A model generated the notes under the pieces. The model was not told the origin of the DNA. It searched no databases and worked only from the letters and a program-made list of their open reading frames with translations. Shown here one piece after another: positions 4,124 to 24,908 of a stretch of DNA of 32,000 nt. The translations under genes were made by a program, and so were the position numbers. The stretch is from Candidatus Saccharimonadota bacterium (GTDB lineage: Bacteria > Patescibacteriota > Gracilibacteria > UBA1369 > 2-02-FULL-48-14). The number at the start of each line of letters is the position of its first letter. Position 1 is the stretch's first letter. The stretch covers positions 180,001-212,000 of the forward strand of contig JBAZVE010000001.1 of assembly GCA_041661045.1 (NCBI GenBank), in the 5' to 3' direction.

Positions 4124-4151
4124 TGTGTTTCTGACCGTTTTCTGCTATACT
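4123..4151 (+). promoter_or_regulatory. candidate promoter of the pilus operon
   Basis: TTGTGT (4123-4128), 17-nt spacer, TATACT (4146-4151), 26 nt upstream of the ATG at 4177. Confidence 0.35.
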
Positions 4152-4176
4152 TATAAGATTAAAACAAAAGAAACCA

Positions 4177-9049: not shown

Positions 9050-9078
9050 AAGCCCCCGCCGAATGGTGGGGGCTTTTT
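9050..9078 (+). terminator. rho-independent terminator after the pilin gene
   Basis: aagcccccgcc (9050-9060), loop gaat, ggtgggggctt (9065-9075): an 11-bp GC-rich stem with one G-U. It is followed by a T-run to 9078. Confidence 0.8.
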
Positions 9079-9174: not shown

Positions 9175-12100
9175 ATGCGTCCACGCCTCCACTCGAACGC
9201 TTTGAAAAAAATTGTGATTTATGGCTTTTTGATGAGCTTTTTGAGCTCTTTGTTGCCCATGAATCGGGTGGCGGAGGCTCTGAGCGTGGTGGGCAGCAGT
9301 GACCCTGTGGTGGTGGAAAACCCCGGCGGCAGCCTGCCGGAGCTGCGAAACACCGGAACGGTGGAGACTCGTTATGGTCTGGTGGCCATTTTGGTGGAGG
9401 ACAGTTTGTGGAGTGCCAATTCCGGCGGAAGCGGGTTCTTCTCTTTTTTGGGAACCAGCGGGCTCAAGCAGAAAATTCAAACTTATGCCGAAGATGTTCA
9501 GGCCACCCTGCCCTGGACCAAAACGGTGATCATTCAAGTGGAGGATGAAGATACTCCCGTGGAGATTCAGCGCATGCTGGAGCGGTTTTATTTTGAGGGG
9601 AACCCTGATGATTCGGATTTTACGCGACTCACCGGCGTGGTGATGGTTGGGTCTGTTCCGCTTCCCGTGGTGAATAAAAATGGGAATCGCTTTGTGTCTT
9701 TGCTCCCCTACACCGATTTTGAAGAGCCTTCTTACCTGCTCGATGAAACTTCCTTGGATTTTCTCCCCAATTTGGAGGCTCAGAATTTGCAAGCGGAGGT
9801 TTGGCATGGACTGATTGTTCCTCCACTCGATGGACAAGAAGGCTTGGACTTGTTGGCCGCCTTTTTTGATAAAAATCACAAATTTCACACCGGAGACCCC
9901 GAGTACACCTCGTTTGATGAAAAGATTTTTGTGGGGGATTTGGTCACGGAGCAGTCCGCCATCAATCCCACTTCTTACGACAGTTACGACCGTTTTGTGG
10001 GCCTTTGGGAAGAGCTGAGTTATTACCGTTACACCAACGACTTGGTGGAGGACCTCTACACGGATATGCAGGCCTCCGTGGAGGCGGGGGACTCTTTGGA
10101 CAATGATGGAGATGGGAATTACGACGAGGAGGCTGCGAATGGGAAGGATGAAGATGGGGATGGTTTGGTGGATGAGGATATTGGAGATGGTTTTTTTGGA
10201 ATCGATAATGATGAGGATGGACAAGTGGATGAAGATCATTTTGAAGACAACAACAACGACAAAGGTTGGGTGTACTCCGGTTACACGGACAGTGAGGCGG
10301 ACACTCTGTTCTCCGACAAAATGGTGGATGAGGATCCTCCCGGAGACAGCAATGGAGACGGGTGTCCCGGACATTGCGGTGTGGACGACAATGGAGACAG
10401 TGAAGATCACGATGGAGACGGCTACCCCACCGGGCTTGAGGCTTTGTACGGGTGGGATTGGGCGAACGAGAAGAAACCTTGGCGATCGGTGAAGAACTGG
10501 ACCAATGGTCAGTTTGGAACGAGTTTTGAAACAGCGGATGCCGCAACGGAATACTTGCAGGAGATGTTTGTGGACCAGTTCTTTAACGACGGACTCAGGA
10601 GCCCCACTTGTTATGCCTCCGATGGCAGCTATCATTCTGAGTGGGATGATGATGAGGATGGATTTTGTGATGAAGATGGCTCCGTCGAAATGCAAATTTG
10701 GACGAGTCCGAGTGGAGGAAGCGCCAGCGGGACTTGTGCGTATAACGACGCGGATTGCGATGGACTCATCGATGAAGATCCTCTTGGCATTCAACCGGCA
10801 GCTTTGTTTGAAGATCTTCCGGATATTCAGGCGCGGGACATTGTGGGGCAATTGACCAGCCGTTACGCGGAACTTTTTGATCAGCCTCAGGGCGTCTGGA
10901 ATCGTTTGGTGGATCAAACCGGACGATATGAGACTCGCAAAAGCGATGGAGAAACCGTGCAGAATGATTACGACACCGCTATTTCTTTGATCTCTAAAAA
11001 AGATGAATTCACCCTGCAATACTTGAGGAGTTTGAACGACAATTTGGAGGCGCAGCTCAATACCATTGTGGAAGAAAATTTGGCGGAAGATATTCCCATT
11101 ATTGCGGGACTTCAAATCACCGGATGGGTTCAGCGCGCGGGAGAAGGGGCCGAGTCCATTTGTGATCCTGAGGGACCTGTGGACCCGGATGGAGATAAGT
11201 GTTTACAGTTTGTGAACCACTCCGGTTTTGACAATACTCTTTTTGATAGTGAAGGTGCTCTCACCGATTTGGATGAGTTGGAACCTTCGGACTATTATAT
11301 CAGCGGACAGCAGCTCTGGGATGTCCATGACGCGAACCAATGCACAAGTTTTGCAGGGACCGATGAGGAAGGCGGACAGTTGGCGCAGTTCAACACGCTT
11401 TACAGCCGTTTGTTCAGCGTGGTGGCCGCCGAAATGACAAAGGCGGATGTAAAAGATTATCGCAACTGTGTGCCTGAATTTGCCTCTTATTTGGAGGATA
11501 TTCCGGAGCTGTGTGATGAAGCCACCGTGACGAAAGAAATTCGTGTTTTGGATGGGGCAAAGACGCCCGAAGCAGAGGATACGAGCCGTTGGGAAGTGGG
11601 GGCCGAAGCGTGCTTTGAATTCCGCGAAGTCTTCACCTTCAACCGTTATTCTCAATCCGTGGCGGAGTTCAACAACTGGCTCACCAATAAAATTCGTGCC
11701 TTCCGCAAAGATGGGGACGATGACGAAGCCAGCTACCAGGAATTTTTGGAAAAAGTGGAGGAAGAACGAGATCGACACGATCCACGGCCGGATGAGGCCA
11801 CTTTGAGACAGCCCTTTGCCAACTTGGATATGATTGCCGCGGATGCGAGCCTGGAATACACCATGGAAGATCTGCTGATTGAGCTGGGGTACAGCGCCCC
11901 TTCGGATGATGACATCGATACTTTTTTGGCGCTGCAAGATGAAATCCAAATAGAGAATCCTTCGGAGGGCAGCGGGATGAGCGGCGTGGAGGAATTGAGT
12001 CTTTCTTTTGACAAACTCTTCCTTAAAAAAGACACGGAAGAGCTCACCACTTTGCGCAGTGAGGCGGCGGAAATTTCTTCCTTTGCCAAGCATACGCAGC

Positions 12101-15100
12101 CCACCATCGCCACGCTCAATGCCCAAGCCACCAATGCCGGCTCCCCCAATCTCCCCATTGATGCGACTCGACGCGTTTCTTTTATCGATGCGGAAGGTTT
12201 GGCTCAGGAGCTTGTGTACATCAATGTGTTTGATGCTCAAACTCTTGAAGCTGTCCAAGCACAAGTGGCGGCTTTGGCGGCGGACATGGAAGAAGTTGCG
12301 GGTGGAAATCGTTTTGTGAACACCGTGGAAAATTTTTATACGGGCATCAATGCCGATCAATTGGCGGATGCACTGGAATGGCGTGGACTGAGTATTGATG
12401 CCAAACATCGCTATGTCCTCAGCCATTATCTTGGTGAGGAAGAGCCTGTGGTGGCCAAGGCCCGATCGGGTTATGAAATGGTCTCTTTGATTGCCGATGG
12501 CAATGCTCAAGAGCTTTACTTTGCCTTCAACGGAGACCAGCCGGAAACGGAGGAGGATTTGGAATTTTTATACCGTAGCCAAGCGGAAATCGAGGCTGCT
12601 CTTGCCGCTGCGCAAGCGGATGCTGCGGAAGAGTATGAAGCTTTGGCGCCCGTGAGCGGCACAACGCCCGTGGTGCTGGTGGAATGGATCAATGAAATTC
12701 AAGAATGGCTGCGAGACTTGGAGGACTCTACGAGCAGCTTTACCATCGCCAGTCTTTTGGATGGTGAACAGGTTTGTGGCTCGGCCAGCGCAGCGGAAGT
12801 GGACACCACGGACGCGGACGATGATGGCATTGTGGACAGCGCCGAGGCAACGGGTTCCTTGTTTTTGAGCACGGATGAGTCCACCGTTCTGCAAGCGGGA
12901 GGTGGAGACTATCTCACGGTTTCTGTGGCTGCCAGGAATGCGGACGGAACGATCAATACCGAGGACAGCAGCACCCGAGTTGAACTCCGCATCGTGAGTG
13001 GAACGGAAAGTATTGAGATTCTTGGAACCGCTTCTCTTGTGCTCACGGGTGGCGTGGCGAGCTTCACTCTGGAAAGCGCCGCTGCCGGAAGCTTTGGCCT
13101 GCAGGCCCTTGCCGAGTCCAGAGAGGATATTCGATCGAGCGATGTTTTGAATGGAAGCAGCGAGCCGAAATTTGTGAAACTCAGCACCTATATTACGAAT
13201 TTGGAGCATGCCGGAACCGATACGGTGATGGAGGGGGATCGCATTGAAATCCGTGATGAGGAAGGCACGGTACGAGCCGTTTTGAACCCCATTACCGGGG
13301 ATTTGGATTTACGCAATGCTGTTGTAAAACTTTTGGAGGCCACGGAAGACTTGCCCACACGGATTTCCGTTGAGTCAGGCGAGGGCCTGGTTTATGGGGT
13401 GATCTTTTTGATCCCGGAGGAAGGAGAACTGGACATTCAAGTGCTGCACCCCAGCGCCGGCATTGCTTCCGCGGAAAATGGTACTGCTCTTGAAGAAAAT
13501 GGCGTTCAAATGGGCCTGGTGACAGACCTTGGGCAAATCACTCTTAGCGCCGGATATCTCTTGGATTTTGAGACCCCTTCGAATTTAAATATCTATGATC
13601 CTCTGCATATCTTGAATGATGATGGAGAAAGTTTATTCACGGTGACCCTTGGAACCGCTGACGATGAAGCGAGTGCGGAAATTTTGAAAGATGAAGGCGA
13701 GTATTCCGATTATCTTGGCGCTGTGTTGGGGAAGATTTTGGGGTGGATGGGAGTGGGCAGCGCGAAGGCGGACTCCGTGATCCCTGACTCCGACGGAGAT
13801 CTTTTGGATGATTTGGAAGAGTGGGTGATTGGAACGGTTTTGAGCAATGGAGACAGCGATGGCGATGGCTATTTGGATGGGCTTGAAATTTTCTCGGGCT
13901 ACGATCCTTTGGCTGAGGGCAAGAAACTCTTCACGGATATTGGAATCGAAAATCCTGCGTATCCCGATTTGGCTCTGCTCTATTTGCGAGGTGTGATCAA
14001 GGGGTACACCGATGGCAGTTTTAGGCCGGACAACCCCATCACTCGAGAAGAATTTGTAAAAATTGATCTGGGTGCCATTTGTGAAGACTGCGACAGTTAC
14101 GATGCGGTGTATGAAACGGAGCTCCTGGCCGCCTACGGCTTGGACCCCTTCCCCGATACCACCATCAATCCGGAACTTTTGGCTTGTGTGGCCGAAGCCA
14201 AGGGACGAGAAATTGTGTCCGGGTATGCCGGGGGTGAGGAGGAAGGATATTTTTTGCCCAAACAGTTCATCAGCCGGGCGGAGGCCACCAAGGTTCTTGT
14301 GGAGACTGCTGGCTACAGTGTGGATCCCGTGGCGGAGGGCGAAGTGTGGTACAGCCAATACATCGCCACTGCGGAGGCACACTCTCTTTTCCCGGAAGGC
14401 AGCCCGTTGACCACGGAGTGGTTGGAAGAATCCATCACCCGAGCTGAATTTGTGATGATGGCCGTCAATATGATCGAAGATAAAGACTGTCGTACTCCGA
14501 TGATGGACAGCAATAGAAATGGAATTCCCGATGTGGAAGAACTGGATGATCCTGAGGAAATTCCTGAAGTCCCCGAAATCCCTGGAGTCCCCGATGCATT
14601 TTCCGGCTTTGGCGGATACGAGCATGGCCCAGGACTTTTTGTGGTTTCCCCCAATGCAACCGTGGAGACCATTACCATTGGCAGTGGAGAGGGTCTCACT
14701 CGTGTGAATCTTTTTACCAATGAGATCCCCGCAAATGGGGAGTCTGAAATCTTTGTGCGGGCTGAAATCCGTGATGTGGATGACCATATTTATGCCGAAG
14801 ATGACAGCAGCGTGATTGAGTTTATTTTGTCCAGCAGCGAGCACGGCACTGTGGAGTCCAGTCGTGTCCGTGTGAAGAATGGCGTTGCAGAAACCCGTTT
14901 TGTGGGGACTGACTTTGCCGGAACCGTAACCGTGGAAGGCCGGATCAGTGATGGTTCACTCCCCTCCCAAAATGCGCAAATTCATCTGCTCCCCGGGGAG
15001 CCGGTGCGTGTTGTTTTGGAAGGCGAGTCTCGTGTTCTTCCTGCCGGAGCGGAAGCAAGTACAAATATGAATTTGAGTTTGTATGATTCTTTTGGAAACC

Positions 15101-18100: not shown

Positions 18101-21100
18101 TCCGTCATGTCAATTACCAAGAAAAGAAATATTCTTCTTCCACTTATGAGGAAGAATACACCGATACCGCCCCCTCCCCCCTTGCCGATTCGGATGAAGA
18201 CGGAATCCCTGACTTTATAGAGGGTCTTGATGATGAAAAAGGAATCCCCGTGCCGACCGATGGCAGCTTTGATCCCATTGCGGAGGTGATGGGTGGCCAA
18301 GATACCAATGGAGACTACTACTACTCCCCCGATGAAATGTTCGTGAGTACAGAAGATTCGGATGGGGATGGTCTCCATGATTTGGTGGACGACTGGCTCA
18401 TTGCGGGAACGGATGCCTTGCTTTTGAATCCGGACTTGGATCTCACCGCGGACATTCCGGAACAAGAAATCGAACTGGAGGCTTCTTTCTCTTTCTTGGA
18501 TGAAGAAATTGAAGGGATTACTCAAAAAATAGAAGAAGTGGTGAGCATGTTTACCTGCAATGGGGGCTGTATCGCCTTCCCGGGCAGTGTCGCCTTTTTA
18601 GCACCGGGCGGCTACCACGACCCCACCACCGGAGCCACTATTATGACTGATTATGGGACGCCCATATTTGGCCTTTTGCCTTGGCTTCCCGTGGTGTGCA
18701 GCGGACAGATGTGTTACGCCTCCCAAGTGCTACGGCTGTATTTGGCCCCCACCACTACCTTGGGTCTTGGTATGGGTGTTTGCCTTGGGCAGTATGGCGC
18801 CGGGCAGTGTTTCGCTTTCTCCATCCCCATTCTTCAAGCGCTTGGGCTCTGTGATATGATGAATGGATTCATTACCGAAGCCTTGGCAAAAGCGACTGGC
18901 TTTGTTGCAGAAGGAGCTCAAGTGGCCTTTAATGTGGGGAACATCGTTTCGGTGACCGCGGGCACCAGTGGATTGGAGAGCGCGGTCTTCACCACTTACC
19001 GCCCTCCGGTTGCCGTGAACACCAATATTCAAGTGCCGGGCTTCCCTTCTATTTTCACAGAATGGTGGAAGGCCCAAAAAGAAGAATTCTTTAAGGTGCT
19101 CGACTTGCCCGATATTACTTTTATTTACCCGGACCCCAAGAGTCTCGTCGCCAAACCAAATCCCCTCACGCTCAAAGAAACGAGTGACCTGGCTTCCGCC
19201 GGCCCCCTTGAAAAGATTAAAATTGTGGAACAAGGCATCATGGGACTTGAAAAATGGCTCAACTGGGCTCATGGCCTCCCGCTGATCAATATTGATGTTG
19301 AGCCGGTGGAAGTTCGTTACCCCGCGCTCACGCAAGAAGAAATCGATATCACTCTGGCCAGTATGTATCTTTGGAAAGAGCGAACCGAGCTTGAGTGGTT
19401 GGATTTTAAGAATCAATTTGCTCTGCGGAATGATTTAACCGCCGCCCAAAAAGAGGTGGTGGATGGCATCAATGACACCATGGAGCAGGCCATCACCGCG
19501 GTGGAAGCAAACTTGGCCATTGTGGAAGGCTACTCCGAAATCCCTGAAAAGATTTTGGCGCTGCGGGATTTGGAAGCAACTATTGCTCAAATTATTGTGT
19601 GTTATCTGGATGCCATTTTGGGCAGCACCGCGGGCTATTTGGCTGAGAACGCGCAGCGCATCGAGGCCTGGGGCAATTGGGCTTTGGATATGCGAGACCT
19701 CCTCGATAGTTGGCAGGTGCTCGTCGATCTTTCTGCCGATCTCATGGATTCTTGCGACAAGTGCACCAACCAACGCTACAGCGCCATGCAGCTTTTGTTC
19801 AGTCTCTTTATTTTTATTCCGGACTTCCCCGTGGTGGAACTTCCAAAACTTCCGGACATTGTGATCGATGTGTCCAACATTCAAGGTGGGCTCACCATTG
19901 TGTGGCCGGATCTCAAATTTATACCCGAGCGGCTCAATATTCCAGAATTACCCGTTATTGTGTTCCCCGATGTGGATCTTAAATTGGATGCGGATTTTGA
20001 TTTTGATTTGGATATCCCCACTCTGCCCGTTCCCAATCTTGATATCGAGTTGCCCCCGCTGCCTCCTCTCACCCTACCGAACCTCCCGGATCTTCCCCCT
20101 CCACCGGCCATACCGGCCTTGGATCCTTCACTGGAAGCCGCGCTCAGTATTTCCAGCAATATCTTAAAAATCGTTTGTATCATTCGCCAAGGATTTATTC
20201 CTGTGCCTGAGTTTGCGCTCAAAGCGAAAATTGAAGAAATCACCGAAAGACCCGGCGGCATTATTCTTCCCATTGATTTGGCAATTACGGTGGAGTGGCC
20301 CAAATTCAATTATGACTTTGTAAAGGAGATTCAGGTCAACACCATGATGAACTTCAGTTGGGAGATCACCACTTTTTATGACTTTATCGCCGGCATTGGG
20401 GAAAAGAGCAACGGCATGCTGACGGACTTTGTGCAGGAAAGCATCAACAAGCCTTTGGAAGAGCTCCAAAAAGACATTCAAGATGTGTTTGATCTTTTGG
20501 GTGAACAAGAATGGGACCTTGAAGTGGACGCGGAGTTTGATGGCGAAGCGAGCCCGGATGGCGCGGATGCTTCCACAGATGGAGGGGTGGGGGTTCAAGG
20601 CGATCTTGAGAATGATGGCGAAGACGCTATTCAGGAATTTGAGGATATTGAGGAGGATATTGAGAGTGGCTTTGAGTCCTACCAAGAGGCTATGGACACC
20701 GCGCTGGCCTACAAAGATCACCCTTTGGTGAAACAAAACTTAGCCATGCTCAAGAGCACTTTGGAGACCATGCAAAAAGAATTCAAGGCGTGGGATGCCG
20801 TGATGCCCGATGAAGTTTTGCTTTCCGTGGAATCGCAAGAGCTGGCCTTGGATGATCCTTTGCTTCATCGATTTGATGAGATCCGTCGCTCCCCCAATCT
20901 CGATCAAGACTTTTTGGCGAGCATTGAGGGGACTCCGCTTTCTTCGGTGGTGAGTTTGCGTGATTCCTTGCTTGCGAGTACCGAGGATTTGATGCAAGGC
21001 ACCGTGGCTTTGAAAGGCATGGGAGATGAATCCTTTTACCGTTATTTGGCGGCGGAACAAGTTGGAAATCCCGTGGCTTTGGCGGGCATCGCAGCAGAGG

Positions 21101-24100
21101 GGGAAGCACTTTCTACACGATGGATTGAAGAACTCAATCGTGTTGAGTTGGCTGCAGAGATGGATGACGCGAGTTCTGCCGCGAGTTTCGACTCCGAGAG
21201 TCTTGAGCTTGGCGCTCAAGCGGAATCCACGAACCAAGGTTTGTATATTTATAATTCTGAAACGGGTGTGAGTGAACGATTGGTGGACTACACGCAAGAA
21301 TCCGATGAGGCCACCAGCCTTTTGTTCATGGACATTGATGAGGATGGGGATCAGGACTTGGTCTACTCCATGGGAGGTGATATTTATCTAAAAGAAAATC
21401 ATACTGAGACCGCAAGCGTACGAGCCGTGAGCGAAGACCCACTGGAACGCCGCGTGCAGGATTTGGATCCCGGCCAGGGCAGTGTTCACAATTTGAAACG
21501 AGGTAAAAATGATTACTCAGAGGCAAGCTTCGCGTTCAATGGCGCTGAAACTGCGGTGGGCTATGAAGTGCTTTTGTATGATTCTTTGGATGCCGAGGAG
21601 TCCAACCCCGATGAAAACATTAAAAGACTTTTGCTTTTGAATGAAGGTGAAAATGAAAGCCTACCCTTTGTGGATGAGGAAGAAAATTCGGTTGGAACCT
21701 TGCAAAAGAGCCGGCTTTGGGTGGATGCCGTCAGTGGAAAAGTTTCACTTCAAAATGCCTACCAACGCACCTTCATTGATACCAATGGAGAAATTGAGGT
21801 CGGTGAGGCCGTGATTTTTCAAACCATTGAGAACAGTGTTATTGAGTTTGATTCCGCGAATAGCTCTTCTTCCATCTCCGTTCCTGCCGGTTCCTTGCTT
21901 CACTTCTCGGCGCAAGCGGAACTGCGTTTGCGAGTTGAGCAAGGCTCTGTTTACTGGATTGATGCCACGGAAAAAGTGGACACTCAGGATCTTGAGCAAG
22001 GGATGGAAATTTTTGCGGAAGAGCTGATTGCCTTGGAAAGTTCCGGGGCCGATGCCACCTTGCTCAGCAGCGATGGCCTCTCACTAGATCTGGATCAGGA
22101 AGAACTCTTTGTTATGGACTCTCTTGTGAGTACCGATAATCCTGCGGTCACGGTTCAACTGGAAAATGGGGCTTACTATGCCATCACTCGCGCCCTCTAT
22201 GAAGGAGGCGGGATCGGTACAAAATCTGAAAATATTCTCCTCAATCCTCAAGTGTGTGCGGATGACAGTGAGCCTTATATTTTGGTGGATAACGGCGGAG
22301 ATGAGGATGGCGGTGATGGCTTGGTGGACAGTGATGGGGATGGGGCCTTGGAACTGGCCATTTTCTCCGTGCGTGAGCTTTCTGCCGAGTCTTCTTTCGA
22401 TAGCGACAGTGCGATTGTGGATGCCTATTGGGATTTGGATGACCAAGTGGACAGCGATGGAGACGGCATCAAAAATAATGATGACCAGTCTTTGGGCCTT
22501 ACGACGGAAATTGGGCCTTATGAAGACACGAGAGAGCGCATTGTTACCCTGTATGTCACGGACAGTGCCGGGAATACTGCTGTGCAAGAGATTGCTGTGG
22601 AAATTTATGTGCCTGCCATTGTGCTCACCGAAGCCACGGTGGATTTTGTCCGAGGGATAACGGATCCGCTCAGCCCCGATTTCCCCTTCCATTTGATTCG
22701 CGATCGCAATGGAGTCCTGAAAGAAATAGGAGAAGGAGCCGGCACCGATGCCTATGGGGAAATCTATGAGGAATTGATTCCTTCCAACCGTTTAGCGGTT
22801 TACGATTCCACCGGAGAGGTGGTTGCCGAATTCAATCCCGTCACTAAACAAGTGCTGGTTTACGACTCCGCCTATGCCTCTGCAGTGCTGCCCGCGGGCG
22901 ATGAATGGCCTTCTCGTTTGGTGGTTTACCAAAAGAGCTTTGGGGCCGTGGTGGGCAGTTTCCTCTTTGTGAATTCCGCTTCCACTCAAATCCGTGAGGT
23001 CGCCGTGCCTTTGGAGAATTTGGATCTGTCCATTTACGATTATCCAACGGTCTACACGGTTTCCGATTCCGAGCACTACGAGTTCACGCAAAATTCTTTG
23101 GTTGCACGCAATTCTCTTGGGGCGCTGGAATTTATGCTGAGTCCCAGTGGCAGCATCAGCATCTTTGATGAAAGGTATCACTTGGTGAAACGAGCCGCGA
23201 GTTCTCTGGATGAATATCTTGTGATTGAGGTTTACGATGGTGATCAACTCGAGCTTGAGATCTGGCCCGGAAGCCCCGATGCGCTTCACCTCACCACCAC
23301 GGAAGAGTTGGATCTGCCCGGTTCCGAGCTCTTGAATCCCGGCACTTCCGGCTCCGGCAGCACACGGCTTGTCTTTGAAGATATTGATGAAGATGATCCT
23401 TTGTACAAAAATCTTGTAGAGCTTGTGGAGCGCGGCATTTTGGAGGGGTATACCGAAAACGATGCGCAGTACTTTAAGCCCGATCAAGCCATCAACCGTG
23501 CGGAATTCACCAAGATTATTTTAGGAATCCTTTGTATTGTTCCACGGGATGAGGCGGAGGCACTGCCCTCTGTTTTCAATGATATTTTGGATCCCACCGT
23601 TTGGTATTTTGGAGTGACCAAAGAATCCTTCTTGCGAGAACTCATCACGGGTTACTTGGGAGAAGTCGATTCTGCCGGAGTGGCTCCATTTAAACCCAAC
23701 AAAACCATCAGCCGTGCAGAGGCGGTTAAAATTGTGCTCGAGGCTTTGGATAAAGAAAATATTATTGAGCTTCCGGAGAATCTTGTGGGAGAGCCTTGGT
23801 ACGATCCTTATATGAATATCGCTCAGGATTTGACCCCCTACTTGGTGAGTGATTCCACCGCGGGCAGTGAATCGTTTATTGTGACTAAGGAGGAAGCCAA
23901 AGATCCTTTGCATGAGCTCACTCGTTATGAATTTGTGGAAATGTCTGTTCGTGTACTGGAGGCTTATAACTGTTTCGATTTGGACAGTGATGGAGATGGA
24001 CTCTTCAACATTGACGAAGAGACCGTGTACGGTACCGACCCCTACAATCCCGACACCGATGCCGGTGGCGTGGACGATGGCAGTGAGGTGGACCGAGGCA

Positions 24101-24318
24101 GTGATCCTTTGAATGGAAGGGATGACTTTGCGGATGACTCCGGCGATGGGCTAGAGCCTGGCATTTATGCGGTACAAGAGCCTTGTATTGCTTGTCCTTG
24201 CACTGCCACCATCGATTATGCCGCGGAACTTCGACCGGGGGATACTGTGTTTGCTATAATTCAAAATGCCGCCGGAGAAATCTTTGGAATCAGCAACTCA
24301 TTAACCCTAGAGGAATGA
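9175..24318 (+). CDS. giant (5047 aa) secreted mosaic cell-surface protein with SLH anchors
   Basis: A 15,144-nt ORF without a stop. Signal peptide: MRPRLHSNALKKIVIYGFLMSFLSSLLPMNRVAEA. Motif-level domains: TSP3-like DxDxDG Ca-binding repeats (~10090-10440, 13790-13905, 18190-18400, 23975-24125) and Ig-like Big domains (~12870-13110 plus four in tandem at ~14690-15900). Also FG-GAP/VCBS repeats (~16950-17340, 21320-21400), a PKD-like module (~22500-22620) and two SLH triads. Confidence 0.9.
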   Translation: MRPRLHSNALKKIVIYGFLMSFLSSLLPMNRVAEALSVVGSSDPVVVENPGGSLPELRNTGTVETRYGLVAILVEDSLWSANSGGSGFFSFLGTSGLKQKIQTYAEDVQATLPWTKTVIIQVEDEDTPVEIQRMLERFYFEGNPDDSDFTRLTGVVMVGSVPLPVVNKNGNRFVSLLPYTDFEEPSYLLDETSLDFLPNLEAQNLQAEVWHGLIVPPLDGQEGLDLLAAFFDKNHKFHTGDPEYTSFDEKIFVGDLVTEQSAINPTSYDSYDRFVGLWEELSYYRYTNDLVEDLYTDMQASVEAGDSLDNDGDGNYDEEAANGKDEDGDGLVDEDIGDGFFGIDNDEDGQVDEDHFEDNNNDKGWVYSGYTDSEADTLFSDKMVDEDPPGDSNGDGCPGHCGVDDNGDSEDHDGDGYPTGLEALYGWDWANEKKPWRSVKNWTNGQFGTSFETADAATEYLQEMFVDQFFNDGLRSPTCYASDGSYHSEWDDDEDGFCDEDGSVEMQIWTSPSGGSASGTCAYNDADCDGLIDEDPLGIQPAALFEDLPDIQARDIVGQLTSRYAELFDQPQGVWNRLVDQTGRYETRKSDGETVQNDYDTAISLISKKDEFTLQYLRSLNDNLEAQLNTIVEENLAEDIPIIAGLQITGWVQRAGEGAESICDPEGPVDPDGDKCLQFVNHSGFDNTLFDSEGALTDLDELEPSDYYISGQQLWDVHDANQCTSFAGTDEEGGQLAQFNTLYSRLFSVVAAEMTKADVKDYRNCVPEFASYLEDIPELCDEATVTKEIRVLDGAKTPEAEDTSRWEVGAEACFEFREVFTFNRYSQSVAEFNNWLTNKIRAFRKDGDDDEASYQEFLEKVEEERDRHDPRPDEATLRQPFANLDMIAADASLEYTMEDLLIELGYSAPSDDDIDTFLALQDEIQIENPSEGSGMSGVEELSLSFDKLFLKKDTEELTTLRSEAAEISSFAKHTQPTIATLNAQATNAGSPNLPIDATRRVSFIDAEGLAQELVYINVFDAQTLEAVQAQVAALAADMEEVAGGNRFVNTVENFYTGINADQLADALEWRGLSIDAKHRYVLSHYLGEEEPVVAKARSGYEMVSLIADGNAQELYFAFNGDQPETEEDLEFLYRSQAEIEAALAAAQADAAEEYEALAPVSGTTPVVLVEWINEIQEWLRDLEDSTSSFTIASLLDGEQVCGSASAAEVDTTDADDDGIVDSAEATGSLFLSTDESTVLQAGGGDYLTVSVAARNADGTINTEDSSTRVELRIVSGTESIEILGTASLVLTGGVASFTLESAAAGSFGLQALAESREDIRSSDVLNGSSEPKFVKLSTYITNLEHAGTDTVMEGDRIEIRDEEGTVRAVLNPITGDLDLRNAVVKLLEATEDLPTRISVESGEGLVYGVIFLIPEEGELDIQVLHPSAGIASAENGTALEENGVQMGLVTDLGQITLSAGYLLDFETPSNLNIYDPLHILNDDGESLFTVTLGTADDEASAEILKDEGEYSDYLGAVLGKILGWMGVGSAKADSVIPDSDGDLLDDLEEWVIGTVLSNGDSDGDGYLDGLEIFSGYDPLAEGKKLFTDIGIENPAYPDLALLYLRGVIKGYTDGSFRPDNPITREEFVKIDLGAICEDCDSYDAVYETELLAAYGLDPFPDTTINPELLACVAEAKGREIVSGYAGGEEEGYFLPKQFISRAEATKVLVETAGYSVDPVAEGEVWYSQYIATAEAHSLFPEGSPLTTEWLEESITRAEFVMMAVNMIEDKDCRTPMMDSNRNGIPDVEELDDPEEIPEVPEIPGVPDAFSGFGGYEHGPGLFVVSPNATVETITIGSGEGLTRVNLFTNEIPANGESEIFVRAEIRDVDDHIYAEDDSSVIEFILSSSEHGTVESSRVRVKNGVAETRFVGTDFAGTVTVEGRISDGSLPSQNAQIHLLPGEPVRVVLEGESRVLPAGAEASTNMNLSLYDSFGNLASNGFYSVSLTEEGGLELLDLNDEDSSMDGIQVTVSDGVLPFRVLSSLTVGQAGVQASLPEVPNSGDEWLIDHKESIILKVQPTQPYLLAGSAGSELVTIQAVDELGFPVSGFQGEVVLSLSDSGFGSFSSESISLVSGSGSSTLSPGTLAGTGSILAESPGLLGGSGPLVVKPADPYELRIRSEDGDSVLAAGEREKFFIEAYDVYGNFVSTDSTTSGSLRLTDSTAEFGTLSSGSFVLNQGRASVFVTSGEVSGKVSLVAASEALLAGTWGGTVNFTLSSEEIAEIDMQMLYASVLGGPFGDSTQENYLGAWMLFNGKTQAVTSLTSESKPKNRLATIDATGSIVLAEDGMVSQVVHGAGTDLPTRIQWREFPSDALLAEIFYKVGDLSGVSPELLTTDTDFELEESDGAWLLRENAAAVLKIREDGQVALMDPSYSLAVNAAADGLSLVALKNTDPVLLIDFDSAWNGELKALESGFVLEDWDRLEDGLYLKPTALSEHRLEPIPTGNSSLNAMGLALVDPSQELAGAMQPSLGYPSLESAEDNGNIGWEEENKHLLLFAAGNTVGQSNLFYPSEIGVVLGDPTIQLPTAGDIGDLGFTADIGVPVSASNEDIHTLLDLDYNGDGTMDVLAAYEDGRIEVLQNADSAVRLKNRGELLFIENGISSIGKGDFNNDGLEDLLIATEEACFEGEMCLYTYENIGGGFVAKNLSLSGVSGTPKQIQVGDLNNDDYDDIVLVDENLVMSVVWNSEGVLETVSPIKDFGLQADPETNLGGELVIHHEGLSSGSVGLSVLSDEFANSDAINTDFGGFLSAVSGDDDFESDSEGLSQEKTLPFEYADALSELFTVSKSLSDPNSGTVEIGDVLTTRVSIQNVSGATLSNIYFSDTDSGSFALDWNSLDSALVQEGEGLRPFIYGPFDLSNGQRLELEYDLSVQALPALSVLLGQDFYSDYRDDDYLDIAVSPEGGSAGDLLVFYSDGVVTEVREDGFLGIGERSFRHVNYQEKKYSSSTYEEEYTDTAPSPLADSDEDGIPDFIEGLDDEKGIPVPTDGSFDPIAEVMGGQDTNGDYYYSPDEMFVSTEDSDGDGLHDLVDDWLIAGTDALLLNPDLDLTADIPEQEIELEASFSFLDEEIEGITQKIEEVVSMFTCNGGCIAFPGSVAFLAPGGYHDPTTGATIMTDYGTPIFGLLPWLPVVCSGQMCYASQVLRLYLAPTTTLGLGMGVCLGQYGAGQCFAFSIPILQALGLCDMMNGFITEALAKATGFVAEGAQVAFNVGNIVSVTAGTSGLESAVFTTYRPPVAVNTNIQVPGFPSIFTEWWKAQKEEFFKVLDLPDITFIYPDPKSLVAKPNPLTLKETSDLASAGPLEKIKIVEQGIMGLEKWLNWAHGLPLINIDVEPVEVRYPALTQEEIDITLASMYLWKERTELEWLDFKNQFALRNDLTAAQKEVVDGINDTMEQAITAVEANLAIVEGYSEIPEKILALRDLEATIAQIIVCYLDAILGSTAGYLAENAQRIEAWGNWALDMRDLLDSWQVLVDLSADLMDSCDKCTNQRYSAMQLLFSLFIFIPDFPVVELPKLPDIVIDVSNIQGGLTIVWPDLKFIPERLNIPELPVIVFPDVDLKLDADFDFDLDIPTLPVPNLDIELPPLPPLTLPNLPDLPPPPAIPALDPSLEAALSISSNILKIVCIIRQGFIPVPEFALKAKIEEITERPGGIILPIDLAITVEWPKFNYDFVKEIQVNTMMNFSWEITTFYDFIAGIGEKSNGMLTDFVQESINKPLEELQKDIQDVFDLLGEQEWDLEVDAEFDGEASPDGADASTDGGVGVQGDLENDGEDAIQEFEDIEEDIESGFESYQEAMDTALAYKDHPLVKQNLAMLKSTLETMQKEFKAWDAVMPDEVLLSVESQELALDDPLLHRFDEIRRSPNLDQDFLASIEGTPLSSVVSLRDSLLASTEDLMQGTVALKGMGDESFYRYLAAEQVGNPVALAGIAAEGEALSTRWIEELNRVELAAEMDDASSAASFDSESLELGAQAESTNQGLYIYNSETGVSERLVDYTQESDEATSLLFMDIDEDGDQDLVYSMGGDIYLKENHTETASVRAVSEDPLERRVQDLDPGQGSVHNLKRGKNDYSEASFAFNGAETAVGYEVLLYDSLDAEESNPDENIKRLLLLNEGENESLPFVDEEENSVGTLQKSRLWVDAVSGKVSLQNAYQRTFIDTNGEIEVGEAVIFQTIENSVIEFDSANSSSSISVPAGSLLHFSAQAELRLRVEQGSVYWIDATEKVDTQDLEQGMEIFAEELIALESSGADATLLSSDGLSLDLDQEELFVMDSLVSTDNPAVTVQLENGAYYAITRALYEGGGIGTKSENILLNPQVCADDSEPYILVDNGGDEDGGDGLVDSDGDGALELAIFSVRELSAESSFDSDSAIVDAYWDLDDQVDSDGDGIKNNDDQSLGLTTEIGPYEDTRERIVTLYVTDSAGNTAVQEIAVEIYVPAIVLTEATVDFVRGITDPLSPDFPFHLIRDRNGVLKEIGEGAGTDAYGEIYEELIPSNRLAVYDSTGEVVAEFNPVTKQVLVYDSAYASAVLPAGDEWPSRLVVYQKSFGAVVGSFLFVNSASTQIREVAVPLENLDLSIYDYPTVYTVSDSEHYEFTQNSLVARNSLGALEFMLSPSGSISIFDERYHLVKRAASSLDEYLVIEVYDGDQLELEIWPGSPDALHLTTTEELDLPGSELLNPGTSGSGSTRLVFEDIDEDDPLYKNLVELVERGILEGYTENDAQYFKPDQAINRAEFTKIILGILCIVPRDEAEALPSVFNDILDPTVWYFGVTKESFLRELITGYLGEVDSAGVAPFKPNKTISRAEAVKIVLEALDKENIIELPENLVGEPWYDPYMNIAQDLTPYLVSDSTAGSESFIVTKEEAKDPLHELTRYEFVEMSVRVLEAYNCFDLDSDGDGLFNIDEETVYGTDPYNPDTDAGGVDDGSEVDRGSDPLNGRDDFADDSGDGLEPGIYAVQEPCIACPCTATIDYAAELRPGDTVFAIIQNAAGEIFGISNSLTLEE
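13930..14478 (+). other. internal triple S-layer-homology (SLH) module of the giant protein
   Basis: FTDIGIENPAYPDLALLYLRGVIKGYTDGSFRPDNPITREEFVKI, then FPDTTINPELLACVAEAKGREIVSGYAGGEEEGYFLPKQFISRAEATKVLV, then VWYSQYIATAEAHSLFPEG...ITRAEFVMMAV. These fit the SLH pattern F.D...........G...GY.DG.F.P...[IV][ST]R[AE]E. Confidence 0.6.
23374..23967 (+). other. C-terminal triple SLH module of the giant protein
   Basis: FEDIDEDDPLYKNLVELVERGILEGYTENDAQYFKPDQAINRAEFTKIIL, then FNDILDPTVWYFGVTKESFLRELITGYLGEVDSAGVAPFKPNKTISRAEAVKIVL, then a degenerate third copy ending LTRYEFVEMSVRVLE. Confidence 0.6.
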
Positions 24319-24908
24319 TGCCTTTGCCTCAAAAATTGGAGTCCCGACTTTTCTTGCTTTGCCTCAGCTTGATGCTGGTCTTCAATGGTTTGTTTTATGC
24401 TCTTGCGGAGGAGACAACGGGAGAAACCGTTGCTACCGAGATCGAAGGTGTGGACTATGCCTGCGGGCAGGCTGTGACTGAACAGGCCTCTGTCCTTATT
24501 GACTCTTACCAAACCTTTTTGGATGACTATTTTAAAGTGGATACACCTTCCAGCAGCCAAGTGGATCATGCCATGCGTTACTACCGATACATGGAAAGTT
24601 CCATTGAAGCCATTTATGAAAACAACTTGGATCTTTATGCCAATACGACTCTCCAAGACAGCACCCAGGCGAGCAGTGATTGTGCAGGCAGACGAGATTT
24701 CTATTTGGATGTCGCCCGCGCTCTGCTTCAAAAACAAGTCATCGCTTCTGCGAACAGCAAGCGCACTTTTGAAGTGATCGATGGTCTTAAAATCATGAAT
24801 GCCGATTTGGAAGAATTTTCCGATGAGTTCAATGCTGTCTTCCCCGCTTACTTCAATAAATTCAACAATGCTTTACCCTGTTACGCTCGCCAATGCATAG
24901 TAAAATGA
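24315..24908 (+). CDS. secreted hypothetical protein P1 (197 aa), first of the four-gene cassette
   Basis: The ATG at 24315 overlaps the giant-gene TGA (ATGA). The track ORF from 24183 is an in-frame extension inside the giant gene. Signal-like MMPLPQKLESRLFLLCLSLMLVFNGLFYALA. Ends ...LPCYARQCIVK. Confidence 0.75.
   Translation: MMPLPQKLESRLFLLCLSLMLVFNGLFYALAEETTGETVATEIEGVDYACGQAVTEQASVLIDSYQTFLDDYFKVDTPSSSQVDHAMRYYRYMESSIEAIYENNLDLYANTTLQDSTQASSDCAGRRDFYLDVARALLQKQVIASANSKRTFEVIDGLKIMNADLEEFSDEFNAVFPAYFNKFNNALPCYARQCIVK

What the first reader, a model, noticed from the sequence alone, without database searches (positions are those of the whole stretch)
9175..24318. Uninterrupted 15.1-kb ORF encoding a 5047-aa mosaic surface protein
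There is no stop codon for 15,144 nt, and the product has a clear Sec-type signal peptide. It strings together acidic DxDxDG (thrombospondin type 3-like) Ca-binding repeats and Cys-containing acidic modules (10635-10790). It also carries at least five Ig-like domains, integrin-like FG-GAP/VCBS repeats, a DUF11/CARDB-like repeat (~17640-17930), a PKD-like module and six SLH repeats. About 1500 aa (nt ~18400-22200) match nothing I recognise. A protein of this size takes up half the window, which is unusual for what appears to be a small, SD-poor genome. It suggests a dominant role in cell-cell or cell-surface contact.
Basis: partly seen in the sequence, partly recalled or inferred. Interest (0 to 1): 0.7.

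Follow-up and report, generated by a model that had tools for sequence, protein, structure and literature searches.

The report
Pilin-linked giant wall-anchored surface protein
The 15-kb gene is real and encodes a 548-kDa wall-anchored surface protein of an ultrasmall (CPR, Peregrinibacteria) bacterium; it belongs to a large, uncharacterised family that is nearly always encoded right after a pilin gene, which makes it a concrete candidate for how these bacteria contact other cells.

Summary
Confirmed: ORF 9175-24318 (+), 5,047 aa, 548 kDa, pI 4.05, with no stop codon (chance about 1e-114). It aligns end to end with independent homologs and has no tandem repeats, so it is one gene and not a chimera.

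The host is a Candidatus Peregrinibacteria-type CPR bacterium. Two SLH triplets (six repeats), FG-GAP repeats and 15 DxDxDG motifs are solid. Ig-like, TSP3 and DUF11 calls are weak in the window but recur across relatives. PKD is unsupported.

The protein is not a loose mosaic. It belongs to a collinear family (421 clusters at 50% identity, mostly 3,500-6,000 aa). It is Cys- and Pro-rich and has no Pfam or PDB relative.

The gene sits in a conserved cluster: two PilN/PilO-like membrane proteins, a PilB/GspE-type ATPase, a PilC/GspF platform, a pilin, the giant, then four secreted proteins, most ending in a Cys. A prepilin gene lies upstream in 59 of 67 loci, and the ATPase plus platform in 37 of 44.

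Best reading: a Sec-exported, Ca-binding, SLH-anchored surface complex that works with a dedicated type IV filament, probably in cell contact. That function is inferred, not shown. It is a new variant of a known kind, of moderate to high interest.

The parts
4177..5334 (+). up1: 385-aa membrane protein of the cluster, with one hydrophobic segment near aa 78-95, a coiled-coil-like middle and a weakly PilN-like C-terminus
   Evidence: No Pfam hit at the default threshold. PilN E 0.019, below threshold, at aa 315-382. Orthologs occupy the same position in L081, L082, L087 and L088.
5336..5908 (+). up2: 190-aa protein with an N-terminal membrane anchor, weakly GspM/PilO-like. The ORF listing starts it at TTG 5324; the first ATG is at 5336.
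   Evidence: T2SSM_b E 0.0048 and Amuc_1100 pilus-like family E 0.0052, both below threshold. 53% identical to the L081 ortholog.
5908..7158 (+). Extension-type type IV filament ATPase (PilB/GspE class), lacking the N-terminal ~180 aa of canonical PilB
   Evidence: Pfam T2SSE E 2.5e-125. TIGR02538 PilB E 3e-147, matching profile positions 180-561 only. 68-77% identical to Peregrinibacteria orthologs.
7162..8370 (+). Platform protein (PilC/GspF class)
   Evidence: Pfam T2SSF E 2.6e-51, two stretches. GspF E 9.5e-89.
8439..9029 (+). Prepilin-type pilin (196 aa), with the motif KRA|FTLIELLIVI
   Evidence: N_methyl E 1.1e-8. GspG E 2e-12, PilA E 6e-9. A pilin sits at this position in 59 of 67 related loci.
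9050..9075 (+). Terminator-like hairpin between the pilin and the giant gene (11-bp stem, 8 G-C pairs, T-rich tail)
   Evidence: This is a consensus match only; function is not shown.
9175..24318 (+). Giant gene: 5,047 aa, 548 kDa, pI 4.05
9175..9279 (+). Predicted Sec signal peptide (aa 1-35, AEA|L)
   Evidence: Sequence and hydropathy. In family members the N-domain starts 10-120 residues from the N-terminus.
9352..10074 (+). Conserved N-terminal alpha/beta domain (aa 60-300). Invariant or near-invariant: PYTDF (178-182), WHG (210-212), FDKNH (231-235).
   Evidence: Alignments A1 and A3. Present in 103 of 150 representatives. AlphaFold2 pLDDT 85.4, pTM 0.71. Only weak gingipain K and caspase-like fold matches.
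10072..10794 (+). Acidic DxDxDG / Cys-containing repeats (aa ~300-540); length varies across the family
   Evidence: Low family coverage at aa 300-500.
13921..14502 (+). SLH triplet 1 (aa 1583-1776), preceded by a weak TSP3-like repeat at aa 1560-1579
   Evidence: Pfam SLH E 3e-17. TRAE-type motifs at aa 1622, 1699 and 1754.
14602..15954 (+). Ig-like region (aa ~1810-2260)
   Evidence: Big_1 and Glyco_hydro2_C5, below threshold in the window. Ig-like families hit in 10 of 10 relatives. The P0048 Ig hit maps to aa 1846-1929.
16969..17316 (+). FG-GAP repeats (aa 2599-2714)
   Evidence: FG-GAP_3 E 5e-15, FG-GAP E 1.6e-8. Hit in 9 of 10 relatives.
17641..17931 (+). DUF11-like module (aa 2823-2919)
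   Evidence: No hit in the window. A weak DUF11 hit in P0048 maps to aa 2833-2887. Hit in 3 of 10 relatives. Sources name relatives as DUF11 or TIGR01451 proteins.
18457..20574 (+). Family-defining core (aa 3095-3800), with invariant Cys and Pro motifs (C..GGC, SPTLT.GLG, SCDKC, LP.LPPLPLP.LPDLPPPP). It has no known relatives.
   Evidence: 421 clusters found with aa 3081-4280. Highest coverage of the family. Conservation shown. No Pfam, NCBIfam or PDB match. AlphaFold2 model poor, pLDDT 53.
23368..23982 (+). SLH triplet 2 (aa 4732-4936)
   Evidence: Pfam SLH E 5e-9. TRAE-type motifs at aa 4773, 4845 and 4915.
23971..24315 (+). C-terminal TSP3-like acidic repeats (aa ~4933-4995) and a conserved C.xCPC tail (C5004, C5007, C5009)
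   Evidence: MtsD/TSP3 weak. The P0099 TSP3 hit maps to aa 4932-4946. The tail is conserved at 48-52% even in distant members.
24315..24908 (+). d1: 197-aa secreted protein. Its start ATG overlaps the giant's TGA (ATGA). It ends ...PCYARQCIVK.
24893..25543 (+). d2: 216-aa secreted protein, ending ...AQCQ
25534..27453 (+). d3: 639-aa secreted Cys-containing protein, ending ...EYCQ
27450..28547 (+). d4: 365-aa secreted protein, ending ...MQCN

Best explanation
The ORF is a single real gene of a Candidatus Peregrinibacteria-type (CPR/Patescibacteria) bacterium. Its 548-kDa product is exported through Sec (inferred from the signal peptide). It then folds outside the cell, with many acidic DxDxDG/FG-GAP/TSP3-type loops that probably bind Ca2+ (inferred from motifs). 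It is held non-covalently on the cell wall by two SLH triplets, at aa ~1583-1776 and ~4732-4936 (the domains are shown; the binding is inferred from what SLH domains do elsewhere).

This arrangement would leave a ~1,550-aa N-terminal arm free. It would also leave a ~2,950-aa arch, made of the Ig-like stalk, the FG-GAP repeats, the DUF11-like module and the conserved Cys/Pro-rich core, projecting from the surface.

The protein is the window's member of a collinear, lineage-specific family. It is one component of a conserved gene cluster: two PilN/PilO-like membrane proteins, a PilB/GspE-type ATPase, a PilC/GspF platform, a pilin, the giant, and four secreted proteins, most with a Cys at or near the C-terminus.

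I propose that the giant and the four partners assemble into a wall-anchored surface complex, possibly disulfide-linked. This complex would work together with the dedicated type IV filament, most likely in docking the cell onto another cell or surface: the filament makes first contact and the giant complex provides close-range attachment.

- Shown: gene reality, domain content, family, synteny.
- Inferred: export route, Ca binding, wall anchoring, complex formation, and the contact function.
For: **One gene.** The coordinates are exact and the frame is stop-free. Chance is about 1e-114. It aligns end to end with P0011 at 57-60% and P0014 at 44-45%. There are no internal repeats. A 5,622-aa relative was re-assembled in independent datasets at 99.3-99.9% identity with no indels. 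The ORF stays open to the locus end in 72 of 80 metagenome loci.

**Organism.** The ATPase is 68-70% identical to Peregrinibacteria MAGs. Named relatives are Peregrinibacteria or Gracilibacteria.

**Surface location.** There is a signal peptide and SLH hits at E 3e-17 and 5e-9 with six TRAE-type motifs. A CsaB-like pyruvyl transferase lies next to a homolog in L084.

**Ca and adhesion-type modules.** There are 15 DxDxDG motifs against 0.35 expected. FG-GAP_3 scores E 5e-15. Family-wide hits are Ig-like 10/10, SLH 10/10, FG-GAP_3 9/10, TSP3 5/10 and DUF11 3/10.

**Family.** 421 clusters were found, 217 at E<=1e-30, mostly 3,500-6,000 aa with the match at the same relative position. Conservation runs along the whole length.

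**Cluster.** The same 11-gene order is seen in L081, L082, L083, L087 and L088, all found through the giant itself, and in L001-L004 and L008. PilB plus PilC lie upstream in 37 of 44 informative metagenome loci. A prepilin motif lies within 4 kb upstream in 59 of 67 loci, with a median distance of 678 nt, against 0 of 42 controls. Stops and starts overlap from the giant through d4. d1-d4 are orthologous across loci, and most keep a C-terminal Cys.

**Literature.** Large extracellular proteins in these lineages have been proposed to mediate attachment (PMC4736985, PMC8080830).
Against: - There is no experimental or expression evidence.
- The giant carries a Sec signal, not a prepilin signal, and d1-d4 are not pilins. 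No known mechanism would couple it physically to the filament.
- SLH anchoring argues against a pilus-tip location.
- Conservation over the whole length at 27-45% identity, similar to the pilin and to d1-d4, fits a housekeeping envelope component at least as well as a host-specific adhesin.
- 7 of 44 loci lack the adjacent ATPase and platform, and L084 has neither.
- A terminator-like hairpin separates the pilin from the giant.
- The core has no interpretable structure (pLDDT 53) and the N-domain has only weak fold matches. The two best-conserved parts therefore say nothing about function.
- Ca binding, SLH-polymer binding and disulfide links are all inferred.
Confidence: 0.5

Rival explanations
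1. Housekeeping envelope architecture rather than adhesion. The giant, with d1-d4, would be a structural element of the cell envelope. It could be the S-layer or an S-layer-associated scaffold, or a collar or portal that lets the type IV filament pass the wall and S-layer of a cell that has no outer membrane and no secretin.
For: - Two SLH triplets are typical of S-layer and wall-scaffold proteins.
- The domain order is conserved along the whole length, which suggests structural constraint.
- Linkage to the filament assembly genes is tight, and the cluster sits next to rplJ-rplL in the window, L081 and L082.
- No secretin is encoded in the cluster.
- S-layer genes and type IV pilus genes are reported for Peribacteria (PMC4736985), and S-layer-domain proteins and pili for a gracilibacterium (PMC6851277).
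Against: - A 5,047-aa lattice monomer would be unprecedentedly costly.
- FG-GAP, Ig-like, TSP3 and DUF11 modules are more typical of adhesins.
- The terminator-like hairpin after the pilin argues against very high expression.
- Nothing indicates ring- or lattice-forming oligomerisation.
- Some loci keep the giant and d1-d4 without adjacent assembly genes.
Confidence: 0.25
2. Secretion cargo. The ATPase, platform, pilin and PilN/PilO-like set would be a T2SS-like pseudopilus piston. Its job would be to push the folded giant, and d1-d4, from the membrane surface through the peptidoglycan and S-layer.
For: - The pilin scores best against the pseudopilin GspG (E 2e-12). The ATPase and platform score nearly as well against GspE and GspF as against PilB and PilC. 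No retraction ATPase is present in the cluster.
- The 'cargo' genes carry Sec signals and follow the pseudopilin gene directly.
Against: - T2SS-type secretion is defined by an outer-membrane secretin, which these cells and this cluster lack.
- The GspG, GspE and GspF scores are all below the equivalog cut-offs.
- No minor pseudopilins are encoded.
- A pseudopilus has no established role in wall passage in monoderm-like cells.
Confidence: 0.1
3. Host-envelope breaching device. The conserved Cys/Pro-rich core would be a new module that inserts into or fuses with the envelope of a host cell. This would make the cluster a contact-dependent feeding or transfer organelle.
For: - The core is the most conserved block, with moderately hydrophobic conserved segments (aa 3468-3486, 3536-3554, 3652-3670) and a helical bundle in the model.
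- These lineages depend on other cells for building blocks (PMC4736985, PMC8080830).
Against: - No segment has the length and hydrophobicity of a clear transmembrane helix: the maximum Kyte-Doolittle 19-residue mean is 1.68, and the segments are proline-interrupted.
- The model has low confidence and no fold match.
- There is no toxin or pore family hit.
Confidence: 0.1
4. Artefact. The ORF would be a chimeric or frameshift-'corrected' assembly that fuses several genes.
For: Homologs in the complete genome CP064962.1 (L083) and in L084, L108 and L139 are split by frame changes.
Against: - Those splits are simple frame changes inside continuous homology. In L083 the two parts, 2,351 + 2,665 aa, add up to 5,016 aa.
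- More than 100 full-length relatives of 3,500-6,000 aa exist.
- The window protein is collinear end to end with independent homologs.
- There are no repeats that could collapse.
- Composition is uniform along the gene.
Confidence: 0.02

Closest known systems
Uncharacterised giant extracellular proteins reported in Peribacteria, Gracilibacteria and Vampirococcus (Absconditabacteria)
   Same: They come from the same group of CPR lineages and the same size class: 1,219-3,861 aa in Ca. Peribacter riflensis (PMC4736985) and up to 4,163 aa with DUF11 and integrin domains in Vampirococcus (PMC8080830). They are predicted to be extracellular and were proposed to mediate attachment. Database relatives of the window protein are named only 'SLH domain-containing', 'DUF11 domain-containing' or 'FG-GAP-like repeat-containing'.
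   Different: Those reports list large proteins in general terms. In the papers I could search, none defines this collinear family, its ~700-aa core, its pilin linkage or the four partner genes. Whether the published proteins belong to this family was not tested.
PilY1 / PilC-type non-pilin adhesins of type IVa pili
   Same: Both are large Sec-exported non-pilin proteins encoded within pilin gene clusters. Both have beta-propeller-type repeats and Ca-binding sites. PilY1 acts together with the pilus in attachment (established knowledge).
   Different: The giant has no match to the PilY1/PilC beta-propeller family, is 4-5 times larger, carries SLH wall anchors that are incompatible with a tip location, and has no accompanying set of minor pilins.
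SLH-anchored S-layer and wall-scaffold proteins (for example Bacillus anthracis Sap/EA1, clostridial cellulosome anchoring scaffoldins)
   Same: Both have a signal peptide plus SLH triplets that bind pyruvylated wall polymer. A CsaB-like gene lies next to one homolog.
   Different: The giant has two triplets placed internally and near the C-terminus rather than one terminal triplet. It is also far larger, has a different passenger domain set, and is linked to pilus genes.
Giant repetitive T1SS adhesins (LapA, SiiE, BapA, MpIBP)
   Same: Both are about 0.5 MDa, acidic and Ca-dependent, contain Ig-like modules and act in surface attachment.
   Different: Those adhesins are built from long tandem arrays, with RTX repeats and a C-terminal T1SS signal, and are encoded next to T1SS genes. 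The window protein is non-repetitive, has an N-terminal Sec signal, has no RTX hit and has no T1SS neighbours.
ComG-type and minimal type IV filament operons of monoderm bacteria
   Same: The gene order of ATPase, platform and major pilin followed by several small exported proteins is the same. There is no secretin and no retraction ATPase in the operon.
   Different: In ComG the genes after the major pilin are four minor pilins. Here they are a 5,047-aa SLH protein and four proteins with ordinary Sec signals.

Membership tests
SLH-domain wall-anchored proteins (PF00395) | SLH repeats, usually three in a row, with the TRAE-type motif | tested here: met
   Pfam E 3e-17 and 5e-9, above the 20.8-bit cut-off. 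Six motifs in two triplets.
SLH-domain wall-anchored proteins (PF00395) | N-terminal export signal | tested here: met
   Positively charged n-region, a hydrophobic core of about 16 residues, and AEA|L. This was judged from the sequence, not by a dedicated predictor.
SLH-domain wall-anchored proteins (PF00395) | Pyruvylated secondary wall polymer and a CsaB pyruvyl transferase in the genome | not testable with these tools
   No such gene lies in the 32-kb window. A PS_pyruv_trans gene lies next to the homolog in L084.
Integrin-like FG-GAP / VCBS beta-propeller proteins | FG-GAP repeats with Ca-binding Dx[DN]xDG loops | tested here: met
   FG-GAP_3 E 5e-15 and FG-GAP E 1.6e-8 at aa 2599-2714. 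DYNGDG at 2599 and DFNNDG at 2649.
Integrin-like FG-GAP / VCBS beta-propeller proteins | A complete seven-bladed propeller | tested here: inconclusive
   Only 2-3 repeats are detected by Pfam. This region was not modelled.
PilY1 / PilC type IV pilus tip adhesins | PilY1/PilC C-terminal beta-propeller domain | tested here: not met
   No such Pfam or NCBIfam hit, even at E<=10.
PilY1 / PilC type IV pilus tip adhesins | Encoded with a set of minor pilins that link it to the filament | tested here: not met
   Only one pilin is present in the window. d1-d4 have Sec-type signals and no prepilin motif.
PilY1 / PilC type IV pilus tip adhesins | Encoded in a pilin or pilus-assembly locus | tested here: met
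RTX / T1SS giant adhesins | Tandem repeat arrays, RTX nonapeptides, a C-terminal secretion signal and adjacent T1SS genes | tested here: not met
   No internal repeats, no RTX hit, an N-terminal Sec signal, and no T1SS genes nearby.
Clan CD cysteine peptidases (gingipain C25 / caspase fold), for the N-domain | Caspase-like alpha/beta fold | tested here: inconclusive
Clan CD cysteine peptidases (gingipain C25 / caspase fold), for the N-domain | Catalytic His-Cys dyad | tested here: not met
   There is no Cys anywhere in aa 1-396 of the window protein and no conserved Cys column in A3. His211 is nearly invariant.
Bacterial TSP3 / DUF11 / Ig-like adhesin modules | Pfam matches above the gathering threshold | tested here: inconclusive
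   The window has only sub-threshold hits: TSP3_bac E 0.036, Big_1 E 0.002, and no DUF11 hit. Relatives: TSP3 5/10, Big_1 3/10, Invasin_D3 10/10, DUF11 3/10. The DUF11 position maps to aa 2833-2887.
PKD domain proteins | PKD Pfam match | tested here: not met
   No PKD hit in the window or in 12 relatives.
Pilin-linked giant protein family of Peregrinibacteria/Gracilibacteria (as delimited here) | N-domain directly after the signal peptide, FG-GAP block, Cys/Pro-rich core, and a C-terminal SLH triplet plus C.xCPC tail, in this order | tested here: met
   Shorter members (3,044-3,402 aa) keep the same order.
Pilin-linked giant protein family of Peregrinibacteria/Gracilibacteria (as delimited here) | A prepilin gene directly upstream and four secreted partner genes downstream | tested here: met
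   Window. Family.

The most novel reading that the evidence does not exclude
The cluster would encode a previously undescribed contact organelle specific to the Peregrinibacteria/Gracilibacteria branch of the CPR. It would consist of a minimal type IV filament, a 0.5-MDa wall-anchored protein and four Cys-terminated partners. The ~700-aa Cys/Pro-rich core would be a new fold that engages or breaches the envelope of a host cell, making it the physical interface for the episymbiotic or predatory lifestyle.
Probability: 0.15. Interest if true: 0.85.

Novelty: new variant of a known kind. Interest (0 to 1): 0.6.

Why it matters
CPR bacteria make up a large share of bacterial diversity and are thought to live attached to other cells. 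The molecules of that interface are known only for a few cultured Saccharibacteria, where type IV pili matter.

This work turns a vague category, 'large extracellular proteins', into a defined object that can be searched for:
- a collinear family of 3,000-6,000-aa proteins with a diagnostic core and N-domain;
- a nearly constant genetic link to a pilin and usually to a minimal filament assembly set;
- four dedicated partner proteins.

That gives experimenters specific targets for proteomics, antibodies, cryo-ET and structure prediction. It gives annotators a signature for a gene that is often fragmented or frameshifted in assemblies. It also raises a concrete question: why is a Sec-exported, wall-anchored giant so tightly coupled to a pilin gene?

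If the core proves to be a new fold with a role in host contact, it would bear directly on how this branch of the CPR feeds.

Tried and rejected
2. The same tool found nothing with the core as a single query, and only P0015 with the core profile. The exhaustive HMMER search shows 421 clusters, so these are false negatives of the word index. Pro-rich words probably fill the candidate list.
3. An exact-match lookup of the window's ATPase found nothing on record, so the source contig was not identified.
4. The AlphaFold2 model of the core, made with 13 sequences, was poor (pLDDT 53, pTM 0.33). Its Foldseek search gave only noise, with a best E of 2.2. This is uninformative; it is not evidence for a new fold.
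6. I recalled a gingipain/C25-like pattern in the N-domain and tested it. The fold match is only weak and there is no catalytic Cys, so I do not file it as a peptidase.
7. Profile searches of the N-domain and the core against PDB sequences gave nothing meaningful. The whole protein against PDB gave only a weak SLH match.
8. I considered that d1-d4 might be divergent minor pilins, and rejected this. They have ordinary Sec signals with AxA-type sites, no prepilin motif and no pilin family hit.
9. I considered TGA recoding (code 25) as the cause of interrupted homologs, and rejected this. The interruptions are frame changes or genuinely shorter proteins.
10. BLAST of d1-d4 against the giant, and of the giant against itself, found no paralogy.
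11. Rfam and tRNA scans of the window were empty.
12. Literature searches found no description of this family or cluster.

Full report
**1. The observation**

The ORF is exactly as described. The ORF listing reports 9175..24318 on the + strand, 5,047 aa, with an ATG start, and there is an in-frame stop 12 nt upstream at 9163. With the window's base composition, a run of 5,047 codons without a stop has a probability of about 1e-114.

The product is 548 kDa with pI 4.05 and is very acidic, with D+E at 18.8%. G+C is even along the gene, at 0.48-0.53.

The N-terminus (MRPRLHSNALKK / IVIYGFLMSFLSSLLP / MNRVAEA|LS) has the three regions of a Sec signal peptide. I judged this from the sequence, because no dedicated predictor was available.

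**2. The domain claims**

- **SLH.** Pfam confirms SLH at aa 1586-1627 plus a second stretch (E 3e-17) and at aa 4734-4778 plus a second stretch (E 5e-9). Six TRAE-type motifs at aa 1622, 1699, 1754, 4773, 4845 and 4915 show two triplets, so 'six SLH repeats' is right.
- **FG-GAP.** Repeats are confirmed at aa 2599-2714 (FG-GAP_3 E 5e-15, FG-GAP E 1.6e-8).
- **DxDxDG.** The motif occurs 15 times, against 0.35 expected from shuffles.
- **Ig-like, TSP3, DUF11.** Ig-like matches (Big_1, Glyco_hydro2_C5, Big_3_4) and the bacterial TSP3 repeat are below threshold in the window, and DUF11 is not hit at all. In ten full-length relatives, however, Ig-like families hit 10/10, SLH 10/10, FG-GAP_3 9/10, TSP3 5/10 and DUF11 3/10.
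- **PKD and CARDB.** Neither has support anywhere.
- **The rest.** Nothing in Pfam, NCBIfam or the PDB sequence set matches aa 1-1500 or aa ~3000-4700, apart from weak hints.

**3. Organism**

The pilus ATPase upstream is 68-70% identical to proteins of Candidatus Peregrinibacteria MAGs and 56% identical to Gracilibacteria proteins. Relatives of the giant that carry a source name are Peregrinibacteria, Gracilibacteria or 'Patescibacteria group'.

Complete or near-complete relatives are 1.34-1.37 Mb, so the gene would be about 1.1% of such a genome. An SD-like motif precedes only 1 of 16 starts, against a 14% background.

**4. One gene, not an artefact**

- The closest full-length relatives align end to end and in order: P0011 (5,163 aa) at 57-60% and P0014 (5,031 aa) at 44-45%.
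- The protein has no internal repeats by BLAST, and the DNA has only two trivial two-copy 18-nt repeats. Repeat collapse is therefore not an issue.
- A 5,622-aa relative was assembled independently in NCBI, JGI, ENA and Logan data at 99.3-99.9% identity without indels.
- In 72 of 80 metagenome loci the homologous ORF stays open to the end of the fetched DNA, up to about 3,650 aa.
- A few homologs are interrupted by frame changes within continuous homology, including the one in the complete genome CP064962.1 (2,351 + 2,665 aa). Whether those are sequencing errors or pseudogenes is open.

**5. A conserved family, not a mosaic**

An exhaustive HMMER search with aa 3081-4280 found 421 cluster representatives (50% identity clusters) at E<=1e-3, with 217 at E<=1e-30. 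Nearly all are themselves 3,500-6,066 aa, with the match at the same relative position.

BLAST of the window protein against 150 of them shows four well-conserved blocks:
- aa 100-300;
- aa 2200-3000;
- aa 3100-3800, which is the best conserved;
- aa 4300-5047.

These are separated by variable stretches at aa 300-500, 800-1600 and 3800-4000. Ten members at about 28% identity to each other align over their whole length. Shorter members (3,044-3,402 aa) keep the same order of blocks.

It is a ~700-aa core with invariant Cys and Pro motifs: C..GGC, R.Y.SPTLT.GLG..C, NI.IPGFPS, SCDKC, LF..IP.PPIIP.PKLPDI, LP.LPPLPLP.LPDLPPPP and KI.CL..G.IP.PE. Its profile matches nothing in the PDB.

An AlphaFold2 model made with 13 sequences was poor (pLDDT 53). 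Only a helical bundle at about aa 3371-3535 reached pLDDT 70-84. Its fold search returned noise. This is uninformative rather than evidence for a new fold.

**6. The N-domain**

Right after the signal peptide, 103 of 150 representatives carry a ~240-aa domain with invariant or near-invariant PYTDF, WHG and FDKNH motifs. Its model is confident (pLDDT 85.4, pTM 0.71). It is an alpha/beta domain.

The best Foldseek matches in the PDB are the catalytic domain of gingipain K (prob 0.98, but E 0.04 and TM-score 0.38) and several caspases (E 0.05-0.2). None reaches E<=0.001. There is no Cys in aa 1-396, so a Cys-His dyad is absent.

I therefore call it a possibly caspase/gingipain-like, non-catalytic domain of unknown role. 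More sensitive libraries were unavailable.

**7. Genomic context**

This is the main new result. Upstream in the window lie rplJ and rplL. They are followed by three genes not found at this spot in relatives: an ORF with no family match, a NikA-like gene and a radical SAM gene. Then comes the cluster:
- two membrane proteins, up1 and up2, with weak sub-threshold PilN and GspM/PilO-like signals;
- a PilB/GspE-type ATPase that lacks the usual N-terminal ~180 aa;
- a PilC/GspF platform;
- a prepilin (GspG E 2e-12).

A terminator-like hairpin (9050-9075) follows the pilin, and the giant starts at 9175. Its TGA overlaps the ATG of the next gene. The four following ORFs (d1-d4: 197, 216, 639 and 365 aa) overlap one another, have Sec signal peptides and no family match, and each ends with a Cys within its last few residues.

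The same 11-gene order is found around distant family members reached through the giant itself: L081, L082, L083, L087 and L088, at 27-45% identity for the giant. It is also found in five loci reached through the ATPase. d1-d4 are orthologous across loci, and most keep the terminal Cys.

A wider sample came from a metagenome scan with the N-domain alignment:
- 37 of 44 loci with at least 4.5 kb upstream carry PilB and PilC homologs upstream on the same strand. This count includes a few near-identical populations.
- 59 of 67 loci with at least 1.2 kb upstream have a prepilin motif on the same strand within 4 kb, 49 of them within 1 kb. The median distance is 678 nt, against 0 of 42 control stretches.
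- Six of the seven loci without an adjacent ATPase and platform still have a pilin-like gene upstream.

One distant locus, L084, has no pilus genes. It has a CsaB-like pyruvyl transferase next to the giant and keeps the downstream genes.

Between the window and L081, the giant (42%) evolves like the pilin (40%), up1 (39%) and d1-d4 (30-37%). It evolves faster than the ATPase (77%).

**8. How it most likely works**

- **Shown:** a single gene, its domain content, a large collinear family, and a conserved cluster with a type IV filament set and four secreted partners.
- **Inferred from established knowledge of the domains:** Sec export, folding outside the cell with Ca2+ bound in the DxDxDG, FG-GAP and TSP3-type loops, and non-covalent anchoring to pyruvylated wall polymer by the two SLH triplets. 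That would leave an N-terminal arm of about 1,550 aa and a central arch of about 2,950 aa exposed.
- **Inferred from synteny:** the giant and d1-d4 form a surface complex that acts together with the dedicated filament. I favour a role in contact with other cells (confidence about 0.5 for the general model).

The main rival is a structural envelope role, either S-layer-associated or as a passage for the filament through the wall (0.25). Whole-length conservation and the SLH anchors fit that equally well. A T2SS-like cargo model (0.1) and a host-breaching role for the core (0.1) cannot be excluded. An assembly artefact is essentially excluded (0.02).

**9. Comparison with what is known**

The literature I could search mentions large extracellular proteins in these lineages only in general terms:
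- 1,219-3,861 aa, strain-variable, in Peribacter (PMC4736985);
- up to 4,163 aa, with DUF11 and integrin domains, in Vampirococcus (PMC8080830);
- large extracellular proteins and many pilins in a gracilibacterium (PMC6851277).

None of these describes this family, its core, the pilin linkage or the partner genes.

The protein works like an SLH-anchored adhesin or scaffold, and its position resembles that of PilY1 in pilus operons. It fails the defining features of PilY1: it has no PilY1 propeller and no minor pilins. It also fails those of the T1SS giant adhesins: it has no repeats, no RTX and no T1SS genes.

**10. Verdict**

This is a new variant of a known kind: a giant wall-anchored surface protein, here forming a defined, pilin-linked, lineage-specific family with an uncharacterised core.

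Interest is 0.6. A specialist would not be surprised that a CPR bacterium has a giant surface protein. The tight and widespread coupling to a pilin gene, the four dedicated partners and the highly conserved unknown core are new, and they make the question of host contact in this branch testable.

Noticed in passing
window 1409-4081: Between rplL and the pilus cluster the window carries three genes that are absent at this position in L081 and L082: an ORF with no family match (1409-1927, -), a NikA-like mobilisation protein (1980-2336, -) and a radical SAM protein (2837-4081, +). This may be an insertion.
   Followed up: partly
window 24315-28547; L081-L084, L087, L088: The four proteins encoded after the giant keep a Cys within the last 1-10 residues in most loci. 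In the window, d2, d3 and d4 have odd Cys counts (3, 9, 5), which hints at intermolecular disulfides.
   Followed up: partly
window 9050-9075: A strong terminator-like hairpin (11-bp stem, 8 G-C pairs, T-rich tail) lies between the pilin gene and the giant gene. It may set a high pilin to giant expression ratio.
   Followed up: no
L084 6628-7719: In a distant family member without adjacent pilus genes, a polysaccharide pyruvyl transferase (CsaB-like) lies near the giant, separated only by the giant's frameshifted N-terminal fragment. This fits SLH anchoring to pyruvylated wall polymer.
   Followed up: no
L083 ~10001-10073; L084 ~10001-10040; L108; L139: Several homologs, including one in the complete genome CP064962.1, are split by a frame change within continuous homology. 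Whether this is sequencing error or real pseudogenisation was not resolved.
   Followed up: partly
window 8439-9029; L089-L098: The pilin of the window has Ala instead of the usual Gly at position -1 of the prepilin cleavage motif (KRA|FTLIELL). The closest relatives appear to share this, because their pilin genes were found only after the search pattern was relaxed to allow Ala or Ser at that position.
   Followed up: partly
window, 16 gene starts: An SD-like motif precedes only 1 of 16 start codons, below the 14% background, so translation initiation here probably does not rely on Shine-Dalgarno pairing.
   Followed up: partly
window 5908-7158: The cluster's ATPase is a short PilB/GspE-type protein (416 aa) that lacks the N-terminal ~180 residues of canonical PilB. 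No retraction ATPase or prepilin peptidase is encoded in the window.
   Followed up: no
window 29433-31987: On the minus strand an MFS transporter ORF (29433-30818) overlaps by about 140 nt a UvrA-like ABC ATPase ORF (30680-31987) that runs towards the window end. Relatives have UvrA, PrsW and SMC genes at this position without the MFS gene.
   Followed up: no
tool behaviour, against 35: The word-indexed protein search missed the whole family when queried with the core, while the exhaustive HMMER search found 421 clusters. Pro-rich low-complexity words probably crowd out true relatives.
   Followed up: partly
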